DNA from: Gemmatimonadota bacterium
Lineage (GTDB): Bacteria > Gemmatimonadota > Gemmatimonadetes > Gemmatimonadales > GWC2-71-9
Length of the DNA: 64,000 bases
Assembly: GCA_011390645.1 (NCBI GenBank)
Contig: JAABRY010000001.1
Coordinates: forward strand, 7,192 to 71,191
Direction of reading: 5' to 3'
The position numbers and the translations under genes are program-made. This document shows positions 58,543 through 58,675 of the stretch, in pieces. The first letter of the stretch is position 1. Every line of letters begins with the position of its first letter. A model generated the notes under the pieces. It was given only the letters and a program-made list of their open reading frames with translations. It was not told where the DNA came from and did no database searches.

Positions 58543-58675
58543 CCGGCGGCGTCAGCCGCCGGAGGGGGAACGGTGAGGGGTGAGGGTGAACAGCAATTCA
58601 CAATCAGCGAGACCATCTCCCCCGCTGGCCCAATGTTCCCCCTCACCCATCACCCCTAGCGCGGCGTAGCCGCGT
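58543..58675. repeat. REP-like hairpins plus GGTGAGG-heptad palindrome (copy K)
   Basis: CCGGCGGC-gtca-GCCGCCGG (58543-58562). GGTGAGGGGTGAGGGTGAAC ... GTTCCCCCTCACCCATCACC. GCGCGGC-gta-GCCGCGT (58659-58675). Confidence 0.8.

What the first reader, a model, noticed from the sequence alone, without database searches (positions are those of the whole stretch)
58543..58675. Second copy of the TTCCCCCTCACC element, with compensatory base-pair changes in its trailing hairpin
- In both copies, J and K, the TTCCCCCTCACC arm is followed by a 7-bp hairpin with a GTA loop and then TCCC.
  - J: GCGTCGC-gta-GCGACGT.
  - K: GCGCGGC-gta-GCCGCGT.
- The two differing stem positions changed on both strands (T-A to C-G and C-G to G-C), which preserves pairing.
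- Copy K also contains GGTGAGG heptads (GGTGAGG GGTGAGG GTGAACA, opposite CCTCACC CATCACC). This ties it to the period-7 theme.
- It lies between the convergent NlpE/META and S15 peptidase genes.
Basis: seen in the sequence. Interest (0 to 1): 0.55.

Follow-up and report, generated by a model that had tools for sequence, protein, structure and literature searches.

The report
Inverted copy of small palindromic repeat
The region is a real second copy of a roughly 75-base palindromic intergenic repeat of Gemmatimonadales bacteria, sitting between two separate small G+C hairpins, but the claimed compensatory base-pair changes come from comparing the wrong hairpins, so it is a fairly ordinary REP/BoxC-like repeat and not a newly found structured RNA.

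Summary
K has three modules: an 8-bp hairpin 10 nt after the NlpE/META stop, a ~75-nt G-rich/C-rich palindromic core, and a 7-bp hairpin 8 nt from the S15 peptidase stop.

The core belongs to a dispersed family (J, K, and two loci in a related Gemmatimonadales MAG). The similarity runs through the centre, not only the arms. K is inverted relative to J.

The compensatory-change claim does not hold:
- J carries two trailing hairpins, and K's stem is identical to the second (GCGCGGC/GCCGCG).
- That pair is the most similar of 741 hairpin pairs in the window.
- One relative has this hairpin without any core; another has half of it deleted.

Among relatives with 86-96% identical flanking proteins, the cores are kept, replaced by GGTGAAA or other heptad palindromes, or absent.

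The 12-nt arms also occur in BoxC/PIT/triplex-motif pairs of at least six phyla, but J and K lack the CCCTCTCCC/GGGAGAGGG hairpin that defines that family.

There was no Rfam match, no U-tract terminator, and no transposase among 34 window proteins checked.

Best reading: a fast-turnover, hairpin-forming intergenic repeat, possibly serving as a 3'-end stem-loop. Interest is low to moderate.

The parts
58543..58562 (.). NlpE/META-proximal hairpin CCGGCGGC-GTCA-GCCGCCGG (8 bp). It starts 10 nt after the NlpE/META stop codon, whose last base is 58532.
   Evidence: (I7). Relative L110 has two similar CCGGCGG-TTGACA-CCGCCGG hairpins at the same position and no core.
58564..58592 (.). G-rich arm GGGGGAAC GGTGAGG GGTGAGG GTGAACA.
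   Evidence: I11; period 7, 58572-58586.
58593..58633 (.). Centre of the core. It includes the mini-hairpin GAGA-cca-TCTC at 58609-58619.
   Evidence: The GAGA-nnn-TCTC motif recurs in J, L026 and the K orthologue in L108.
58634..58654 (.). C-rich arm TGTTCCCCCTCACC CATCACC.
58575..58650 (-). The core as a family unit, about 75 nt: GGGTGAGGGGGAAC-nn-TGGGC...GAGAT-nn-TCTC...GTTCACCCTCACC. The family orientation is on the - strand, which is the sense strand of the S15 gene.
   Evidence: nhmmer gives 64.2 bits. With a model built without K, the - strand scores 40.6 bits and the + strand 27.8 bits.
58659..58675 (.). S15-proximal hairpin GCGCGGC-GTA-GCCGCGT, 8 nt from the S15 stop codon (58684-58686). 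It belongs to a small CGCGGC-NNN-GCCGCG hairpin family and is not part of the core.
   Evidence: The orthologue in L114 occurs without a core. In L107 and L108, 10 nt of it are deleted.
53991..54064 (+). Copy J, core. Arms at 53994-54005 and 54050-54061, 44-nt centre, mini-hairpin TGAGA-tac-TCTCA at 54022-54034.
53956..53992 (.). J's two leading hairpins: GGCGGC-TAAA-GCCGC (53956-53970) and GTGCCGC-TAT-GCGGCAC (53976-53992).
54064..54101 (.). J's two trailing hairpins. hp1 is GCGTCGC-GTA-GCGACGT (54064-54080). hp2 is GCGCGGC-GCA-GCCGCGC (54085-54101). hp2 has the same stem as K's hairpin.
   Evidence: hp2 is kept in L107 and remodelled in L109.

Best explanation
K is a composite of three independent modules.

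1. The core. It is an inverted copy of a roughly 75-nt dispersed palindromic intergenic repeat specific to Gemmatimonadales. J is another copy.
   - The consensus is GGGTGAGGGGGAAC-nn-TGGGC-...-GAGAT-nn-TCTC-...-GCCC-nnn-kTTCCCCCTCACC.
   - The outer ends grow and shrink as GGTGAGG heptads.
2. Two small, very stable G+C hairpins, one next to each convergent stop codon.
   - The 'trailing' one belongs to a separate short REP-like hairpin family, CGCGGC-NNN-GCCGCG, flanked by C runs.

Mechanism, shown here:
- The core was copied to non-orthologous sites.
- All modules turn over very fast by indels, heptad slippage, replacement and possibly flipping of the centre.
- Some strong palindrome almost always remains at these sites.

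Mechanism, inferred:
- The element is a non-coding, hairpin-forming repeat of the REP/REPIN/BoxC type.
- It persists in the least constrained intergenic DNA and is spread by a copy mechanism that I could not identify.
- When transcribed it folds into a long stem-loop. At K, together with the two gene-proximal hairpins, this probably blocks read-through or 3' exonucleases for both convergent mRNAs.
- It is not a specific regulatory RNA.
For: Dispersed family:
- An alignment of J, reverse-complemented K, the J orthologue in L107, L026 and L067 shows shared arms and a shared centre.
- Centre-only similarity beat all 2000 shuffles for J vs rc(K), J vs L026 and rc(K) vs L026.
- L026 and L067 lie on other contigs of MAG GCA_038216165.1, at unrelated loci.

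Modularity and turnover:
- L107 and L108 (92% identical S15 protein) keep a (GGTGAGG)3 core at the K site but lack half of the hairpin.
- L114 (89%) has only the hairpin, in a 21-nt convergent spacer.
- L110 (86%) has two CCGGCGG hairpins and no core.
- L109 (96%) lacks both the NlpE gene and K.
- At the J site, L107 keeps J, L109 has a GGTGAAA heptad palindrome and L110 has a CCGATCG heptad palindrome.

Hairpin family:
- CGCGGCNNNGCCGCG occurs twice in the window against 0.23 expected.
- With a 3- or 4-nt loop, the hairpin occurs at four independent loci in 167 kb of Gemmatimonadales DNA.

Folding and context:
- J as RNA: + strand -121.3 kcal/mol (z = -7.4), - strand -104.9 kcal/mol (z = -4.1) on 53947-54130. 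The + strand is the sense strand of both flanking genes.
- K folds about equally well on both strands, as expected between convergent genes.
- J, K and L026 start within about 10 nt of a stop codon.
- All seven palindromes in the window have the purine-rich arm at the 5' end.

Known parallels:
- BoxC/PIT/TM elements are intergenic, often occur as inverted pairs and mark unstable loci (PMC4666352).
- Heptameric G-rich repeats near stop codons vary strongly between close relatives (PMC4692102).
Against: - The copy number is small: two copies in 64 kb, and no further copy in about 100 kb of related DNA beyond L026 and L067. I could not search the source genome.
- I found no target-site duplication and no clean empty site.
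- None of the 34 window proteins checked is a transposase.
- L067 lies between divergent genes, and L026 is antisense to the upstream gene. A dedicated 3'-end role therefore cannot hold for every copy.
- There is no U-tract, and the terminator scan found nothing at J or K.
- PIT elements showed no terminator activity in E. coli (PMC4666352).
- No expression data are available.
Confidence: 0.55

Rival explanations
1. K is a bidirectional terminator or 3'-end protection structure that evolved locally. Selection keeps a strong hairpin after each stop codon. The sequences are built in place by heptad slippage and are not copied from elsewhere.
For: - Almost every relative has some strong palindrome at the K and J sites, although the sequences differ.
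- In L114 the whole 21-nt convergent spacer is a single hairpin.
- J, K and L026 abut stop codons.
- J's sense strand folds better than its antisense strand by 16.4 kcal/mol on 53947-54130 and by 17.6 kcal/mol on 53947-54107.
Against: - The core centres are significantly similar at non-orthologous loci, so the cores were copied and not built in place.
- L067 lies between divergent genes.
- There is no U-tract.
- L112 has a convergent spacer of about 20 nt in which I saw no evident hairpin.
Confidence: 0.2
2. K is a DNA-level non-B structure element and a homologue of BoxC/PIT/triplex-motif inverted pairs. The G-rich arms form G-quadruplexes or triplexes that perturb replication or recombination and make the locus unstable.
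For: - GGTGAGGG-N-GAA, then 30-60 nt, then TTCCCCCTCACC occurs at 107 sites in 105 loci from at least six phyla. The commonest spacers are 41-45 nt; J and K have 44 and 45 nt.
- 99 of the 107 sites have BoxC/TM hairpins beside them.
- Three of the window's 13 canonical G4 motifs lie in J or K.
- The NlpE gene next to K is present in some close relatives and absent in others.
- TM loci are unstable in E. coli (PMC4666352).
Against: - J, K and every Gemmatimonadales copy lack the CCCTCTCCC/GGGAGAGGG blocks that a triplex needs.
- No similarity to the alphaproteobacterial elements was apparent beyond the 12-14-nt arms; this was judged by eye and not tested statistically.
- In E. coli, no triplex was detected in vivo (PMC4666352).
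- G-rich arms produce G4 motifs automatically in a genome with 67% G+C.
Confidence: 0.15
3. K is a conserved structured RNA, either a small RNA or a cis-regulatory element. Its trailing hairpin is maintained by compensatory evolution.
For: - Folding z-scores are strongly negative.
- The stems of J's hairpins are unchanged between the window and L107, while two of the three loops changed.
- J-hp1 differs from the other hairpins by two double changes.
Against: - There is no Rfam match.
- The scan found no sigma-70-type promoter.
- K's hairpin has the same stem as J-hp2, so no compensatory change is needed.
- The hairpin is deleted in L107 and L108 and occurs without the core in L114.
- The centre diverges quickly between orthologues.
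- Close relatives have the element replaced by unrelated palindromes.
Confidence: 0.07

Closest known systems
BoxC / PIT / 'TM' intrastrand-triplex-motif repeats, including their inverted pairs. These are also the HPG1/HPG2 'G-quadruplex-hairpin-duplex switch' motifs (PMC4666352, PMC5100583, PMC2267715).
   Same: - Intergenic and G+C-rich.
- Arranged as inverted pairs.
- The block GGGTGAGGG(GG) is shared. The 12-nt arms, and a similar 41-45-nt spacing, are identical in Alphaproteobacteria, Planctomycetota, Verrucomicrobiota, Elusimicrobiota and others.
- Associated with variable loci.
   Different: - The defining CCCTCTCCC-loop-GGGAGAGGG hairpin is absent, so no triplex can form.
- The centre is a lineage-specific conserved sequence.
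- The arms extend as GGTGAGG heptads.
REP/BIME elements and REPINs. REPINs are pairs of inverted REPs mobilised by RAYT transposases (own knowledge: Bertels and Rainey 2011).
   Same: - Short palindromic extragenic units.
- Two inverted arms with a spacer, folding into a long hairpin.
- No target-site duplication.
- Often located at the 3' ends of genes.
- The small CGCGGC-NNN-GCCGCG hairpin family behaves like single REP units.
   Different: - High copy number has not been shown.
- No RAYT was found among the 34 window proteins checked.
- The source genome could not be searched.
Heptameric G-rich intergenic simple repeats: GGGNATC in Xanthomonas and Nostoc, STRR repeats, and TAACTGA repeats (PMC4692102, PMC4679880).
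   Same: - Period 7 and a G-rich unit.
- Located within tens of nt of stop codons.
- Sometimes in inverted arrangement.
- Length and sequence vary strongly between close relatives.
   Different: - The unit is GGTGAGG, or GGTGAAA elsewhere in the window.
- K has only 2-3 units per arm, not the preferred four.
- The repeats are always paired with a complementary arm, so they form a hairpin.
Bidirectional intrinsic terminators.
   Same: A strong G+C hairpin lies directly after each of two convergent stop codons.
   Different: There are no A or U tracts, and the consensus scan finds nothing here.

Membership tests
BoxC/PIT/TM triplex motif | A homopyrimidine block CCCTC(T/G)CCC and a complementary homopurine block GGG(A/C)GAGGG that together form a hairpin. 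| tested here: not met
   Neither 9-mer occurs anywhere in the window, nor in L026, L059, L067, L107-L110 and L112-L114. L111 has GGGAGAGGG twice but no CCCTCTCCC partner, and neither site is near a GGTGAGG core. The blocks flank 99 of 107 elements in other phyla and none of the three Gemmatimonadales copies.
BoxC/PIT/TM triplex motif | A third block GGGTGAGGG that mirrors the purine block. | tested here: met
   J has GGGTGAGGGGG at 53993-54003. K has GGGTGAGGGGG on the - strand.
BoxC/PIT/TM triplex motif | Intergenic location, often as an inverted pair. | tested here: met
REP / REPIN | Two inverted short palindromic units with a conserved spacer, folding as one hairpin. | tested here: met
REP / REPIN | Tens to hundreds of copies per genome. 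| not testable with these tools
   The source assembly could not be retrieved. There are two copies in 64 kb and two in the loci fetched from GCA_038216165.1. nhmmer finds no further copies in 167 kb.
REP / REPIN | A cognate RAYT (Y1 HUH transposase) gene. | tested here: inconclusive
   There is no transposase domain in the 34 window proteins scanned. A RAYT is usually a single-copy gene and could lie elsewhere in the genome.
MITE | Terminal inverted repeats together with a target-site duplication. | tested here: inconclusive
   Inverted arms are present. I saw no direct repeat flanking any of the five cores. No clean empty site was available.
Intrinsic (Rho-independent) terminator | A G+C stem-loop followed by a U-tract. 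| tested here: not met
   The hairpins are present, but there is no T run. The scan found no site at J or K.
Curated structured RNA family (Rfam) | A match to a covariance model at the gathering score. | tested here: not met
   The only matches in the window and in nine related loci were tRNAs.
Structured RNA supported by covariation | Independent compensatory changes in homologous stems. | tested here: inconclusive
   Seven hairpin instances were compared. Double changes occur in two inner pairs, and all of them come from the single J-hp1 lineage. The set was chosen because its members are hairpins. The orthologue in L107 and L108 lost the stem through a 10-nt deletion.
Heptameric G4-forming simple repeat | At least four tandem G-tract heptads, or a canonical G4 motif. 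| tested here: inconclusive
   K has 2.1 tandem units; L108 and L067 have 3. A canonical G4 motif is present at 58619-58656 on the - strand and at 53993-54021 on the + strand.

The most novel reading that the evidence does not exclude
The J/K cores and the GGTGAAA heptad palindromes could together be a lineage-wide Gemmatimonadota system. In it, purine-first palindromes built from heptads would take the place of canonical terminators. They would share the arm GGGTGAGGGGGAAC with BoxC/PIT inverted pairs of at least six phyla because a conserved host factor, or an unrecognised mobilising enzyme, reads that arm. On this reading the arm, and not the triplex, would be the conserved functional unit of the whole BoxC superfamily.
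Probability: 0.1. Interest if true: 0.65.

Novelty: new variant of a known kind. Interest (0 to 1): 0.3.

Why it matters
- It removes a false lead. The apparent covariation is not evidence for a new structured RNA.
- It documents a Gemmatimonadales branch of the poorly understood BoxC/PIT and heptamer-repeat phenomena. This branch keeps the GGGTGAGGGGGAAC arms but lacks the triplex-forming hairpin. If the arms are truly homologous, triplex formation may not be what is conserved across the family.
- Palindromes are replaced very quickly at fixed intergenic sites while the flanking proteins stay 86-96% identical. The NlpE gene next to K also comes and goes. This makes the locus a convenient natural system for studying how palindromic repeats arise, flip and are lost.

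Tried and rejected
- Rfam: at gathering score, the window and nine related loci gave only tRNAs.
- Promoter and terminator consensus scan: nothing at J or K.
- Source contig: exact-protein look-ups failed twice, so the genome itself could not be censused.
- Metagenome scan: I used an over-specific pattern (both arms plus GCCY-N4).
- Viral contig scan: no hits.
- Literature search: the arm sequences and the heptad arrays returned nothing relevant. Searching the neighbouring BoxC sequence did find the relevant papers.
- nhmmer with the five-core model: no extra copies in 167 kb.
- Target-site duplications: none seen by inspecting the core flanks.
- Flipping of the centre between orthologues: only weakly suggested. 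The 12-nt string GCGAGACCATCT lies on opposite strands in the window and in L108. The score differences are 11 alignment points and 5 bits. The centres are themselves near-palindromic, so I treat this as unproven.
- Triplex formation: rejected for J and K because the pyrimidine and purine hairpin blocks are absent.
- Coding potential of the element: not pursued, because only short overlapping ORFs are present.

Full report
**The observation**

The window has 67% G+C. Homologues of its proteins are named Gemmatimonadetes, Gemmatimonadota or Gemmatimonadales by their sources. At 58543-58675 the sequence reads as follows:
- hairpin CCGGCGGC-GTCA-GCCGCCGG (58543-58562)
- G-rich arm GGGGGAAC GGTGAGG GGTGAGG GTGAACA (58564-58592)
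- a 41-nt centre that contains GAGA-cca-TCTC (58609-58619)
- C-rich arm TGTTCCCCCTCACC CATCACC (58634-58654)
- CCTA, then hairpin GCGCGGC-GTA-GCCGCGT (58659-58675), then CCCG

The arms are 21 nt long and 90% complementary. TTCCCCCTCACC with at most one mismatch occurs 5 times in the window against 0.36 expected. The flanking genes are NlpE+META on the + strand and Peptidase_S15 on the - strand. Copy J (53947-54107) has the same plan, with two hairpins on each side of the core. Both copies fold much better than shuffled sequence: J -121.3 kcal/mol with z = -7.4, and K -74.7 kcal/mol with z = -4.7.

**The compensatory-change claim**

J has two trailing hairpins. hp1 is GCGTCGC-GTA-GCGACGT at 54064-54080. 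hp2 is GCGCGGC-GCA-GCCGCGC at 54085-54101. MAFFT aligns K's hairpin with hp2, whose stem is identical.

Of 741 pairs of hairpins with at least 6 bp and a 3-nt loop in the window, hp2/K is the single most similar (6/6 stem, 2/3 loop). hp1/K scores 4/6 and 3/3, and nine pairs are at least that similar. The motif CGCGGCNNNGCCGCG occurs twice in the window against 0.23 expected. With a 3- or 4-nt loop it occurs at four independent loci in 167 kb of Gemmatimonadales DNA, usually flanked by C or G runs.

A pair count over seven instances shows double changes in two inner pairs only. All of them come from the single hp1 lineage, in a set that was selected for being hairpins. This does not amount to evidence of covariation.

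**Orthologous loci**

I used homologues of the S15 peptidase to reach related contigs.

| Locus | S15 protein identity | K site | J site |
|---|---|---|---|
| L107 / L108 | 92% | (GGTGAGG)3-GGGAAC core kept; 10 nt of the trailing hairpin missing (AGCGGCGTCCCG against AGCGCGGCGTAGCCGCGTCCCG). L107 has G and C runs of about 30 nt and L108 ends inside the element, so assembly is unreliable here. | J kept, with both trailing hairpins. Stems unchanged; loops changed TAT to TTG and GCA to GAC; centre diverged. |
| L114 | 89% | No NlpE gene and no core. The 21-nt kinase/S15 spacer is just CGCGGC-GCA-GCCGCG followed by TCCCCC. | Not covered by the contig. |
| L110 | 86% | Two CCGGCGG-TTGACA-CCGCCGG hairpins, no core. 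| A CCGATCG/CCGATCT heptad palindrome. |
| L109 | 96% | NlpE gene and K both absent. | A GGTGAAA heptad palindrome in place of J; hp2 remodelled by a 4-nt insertion. |

The hairpins and the core are therefore separate modules. All of them turn over much faster than the coding sequence, and different palindrome types substitute for each other at the same site.

**The core is a dispersed family, and K is inverted**

The genome scan found copies at unrelated loci of MAG GCA_038216165.1, namely L026 and L067. When J, reverse-complemented K, the J orthologue in L107, L026 and L067 are aligned, they share GGGTGAGGGGGAAC-nn-TGGGC-n4-6-GGGkGAGAT-nn-TCTC-n~10-GCCC-nnn-kTTCCCCCTCACC. Centres alone, with the arms excluded, are more similar than any of 2000 shuffles for J vs rc(K), J vs L026 and rc(K) vs L026.

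A model built without K scores K at 40.6 bits on the - strand and 27.8 bits on the + strand. K's 'trailing' hairpin therefore corresponds to J's leading side. No further copies were found in 167 kb.

The genomic contexts differ:
- J is tandem and starts 2 nt after a stop codon.
- K lies between convergent genes.
- L026 is tandem and follows a stop codon, but is antisense to the upstream gene.
- L067 lies between divergent genes.

**Wider relatives**

The pattern GGTGAGGGNGAA, then 30-60 nt, then TTCCCCCTCACC matched 107 sites in 105 loci. These come from Alphaproteobacteria, Planctomycetota, Verrucomicrobiota, Elusimicrobiota, Chloroflexota and Gemmatimonadota. The commonest spacers are 41-45 nt; J and K have 44 and 45 nt. 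In 99 of the 107 sites the arms abut CCCTCTCCC-loop-GGGAGAGGG hairpins.

That sequence is the E. coli BoxC / PIT / 'TMECO' intrastrand-triplex motif. According to the papers, it is always intergenic and has 23 copies in MG1655, five of them as inverted pairs. It is present in more than 260 genomes, shows no promoter or terminator activity, and is associated with local instability (PMC4666352). The same sequences were also described as a G-quadruplex-hairpin-duplex switch (PMC5100583).

None of the three Gemmatimonadales copies found by that scan, and nothing in the window, has those hairpin blocks. J and K therefore fail the defining test for BoxC/TM while sharing its third block and its inverted-pair layout.

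Heptameric G-rich repeats near stop codons that vary between close relatives are also known (PMC4692102, PMC4679880). No Rfam family matches. There were no viral hits. None of the 34 window proteins scanned is a transposase.

**Mechanism**

Shown here:
- the modular structure of K
- dispersal of the core to non-orthologous sites
- rapid replacement, deletion and heptad expansion
- strong folding on single strands
- an advantage for J's sense strand as RNA, of 16.4 kcal/mol on 53947-54130 and 17.6 kcal/mol on 53947-54107, while K is symmetric between its strands
- purine-first polarity in all seven palindromes of the window

Inferred:
- J and K are REP/REPIN/BoxC-like hairpin-forming repeats tolerated in intergenic DNA.
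- At K, together with the two gene-proximal hairpins, the core probably acts as a 3'-end barrier for both convergent transcripts.

G-quadruplex potential exists, since 3 of the window's 13 canonical motifs lie in J or K. That follows automatically from the G-rich arms. The mechanism that copies the element remains unknown.

**Verdict**

- The element is a new lineage-specific variant of known kinds of intergenic palindromic and heptameric repeats.
- Interest is low to moderate.

Noticed in passing
window 30206-30268, 32404-32468, 39186-39252, 46256-46325, 57360-57445: Five palindromes built from (GGTGAAA)n ... (TTTCACC)n heptads with unrelated loops. Each has the purine-rich arm at the 5' end. 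At least four lie within tens of nt of a stop codon. A literature search for these strings found nothing. In close relatives this type substitutes for the J element at the same site.
   Followed up: partly
window 6250-6332, 6612-6676, 35180-35336, 38481-38506, 51269-51297: Non-palindromic arrays of several unrelated heptads placed back to back: CAGAGAA, TCCAACA, GACCTAC, CCCAACG/ACGACCA, CGGAGAA, GCGATTG, GATCGGT, CCAACAT, CTAACGA, GCGAACA and CGGTGAA. They resemble cyanobacterial STRR and Xanthomonas heptamer repeats.
   Followed up: no
window 57453-58532 (NlpE/META gene), compared with L109 and L114: The NlpE/META gene is present in the window, L107 and L110. It is absent in L109, the closest relative retrieved (S15 96% identical), and in L114 (89%). 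Its two borders are the heptad palindrome at 57360 and K, so the gene gain or loss is bounded by palindromic repeats.
   Followed up: partly
window 51303-51423: An inverted repeat, TGTCATCCCGAGCGCAG ... CTTCGCTCGGGATGACA, with 17-nt arms 87 nt apart (I20). It follows a (CGGTGAA)3 array. From memory it resembles a widespread 'GTCATCC(C/T)GAGCG' repeat type. I did not test this.
   Followed up: no
L107 11834-11977 and the end of L108 (9700-9776): The K orthologue in L107 contains G and C runs of about 30 nt. The L108 contig stops inside the element, where it shows a clean (GGTGAGG)3-GGGAAC core. The palindrome evidently breaks or corrupts short-read assemblies.
   Followed up: partly
window 58605-58616, compared with L108 9745-9756: The 12-nt string GCGAGACCATCT in the core centre lies on opposite strands relative to the S15 gene in the window and in L108. 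This suggests that the centre flips by recombination between the arms. The evidence is weak because the centre is nearly palindromic.
   Followed up: partly
L003-L105, for example L037 4164-4232 and L031 5457-5525: Alphaproteobacterial inverted BoxC/TM pairs have a fixed asymmetric design:
- One side carries an extra hairpin, CCCAATGC-gaag-GCATTGGG.
- The inner stem AACGGACGG/CCGCCGGTT has constant mismatches.
- The spacers are mostly 41-45 nt, and the centres are only loosely conserved.

The papers I read do not describe this architecture.
   Followed up: partly
window 54064-54105: J's two trailing hairpins form a 21-nt tandem unit, GCGTCGCGTAGCGACGTCCCC followed by GCGCGGCGCAGCCGCGCCCCG, with about 14 of 21 positions identical. 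Several loops are of the GNA type (GTA, GCA) closed by a C-G pair, as in the very stable d(GCGNAGC) mini-hairpins that I recall from the literature.
   Followed up: no
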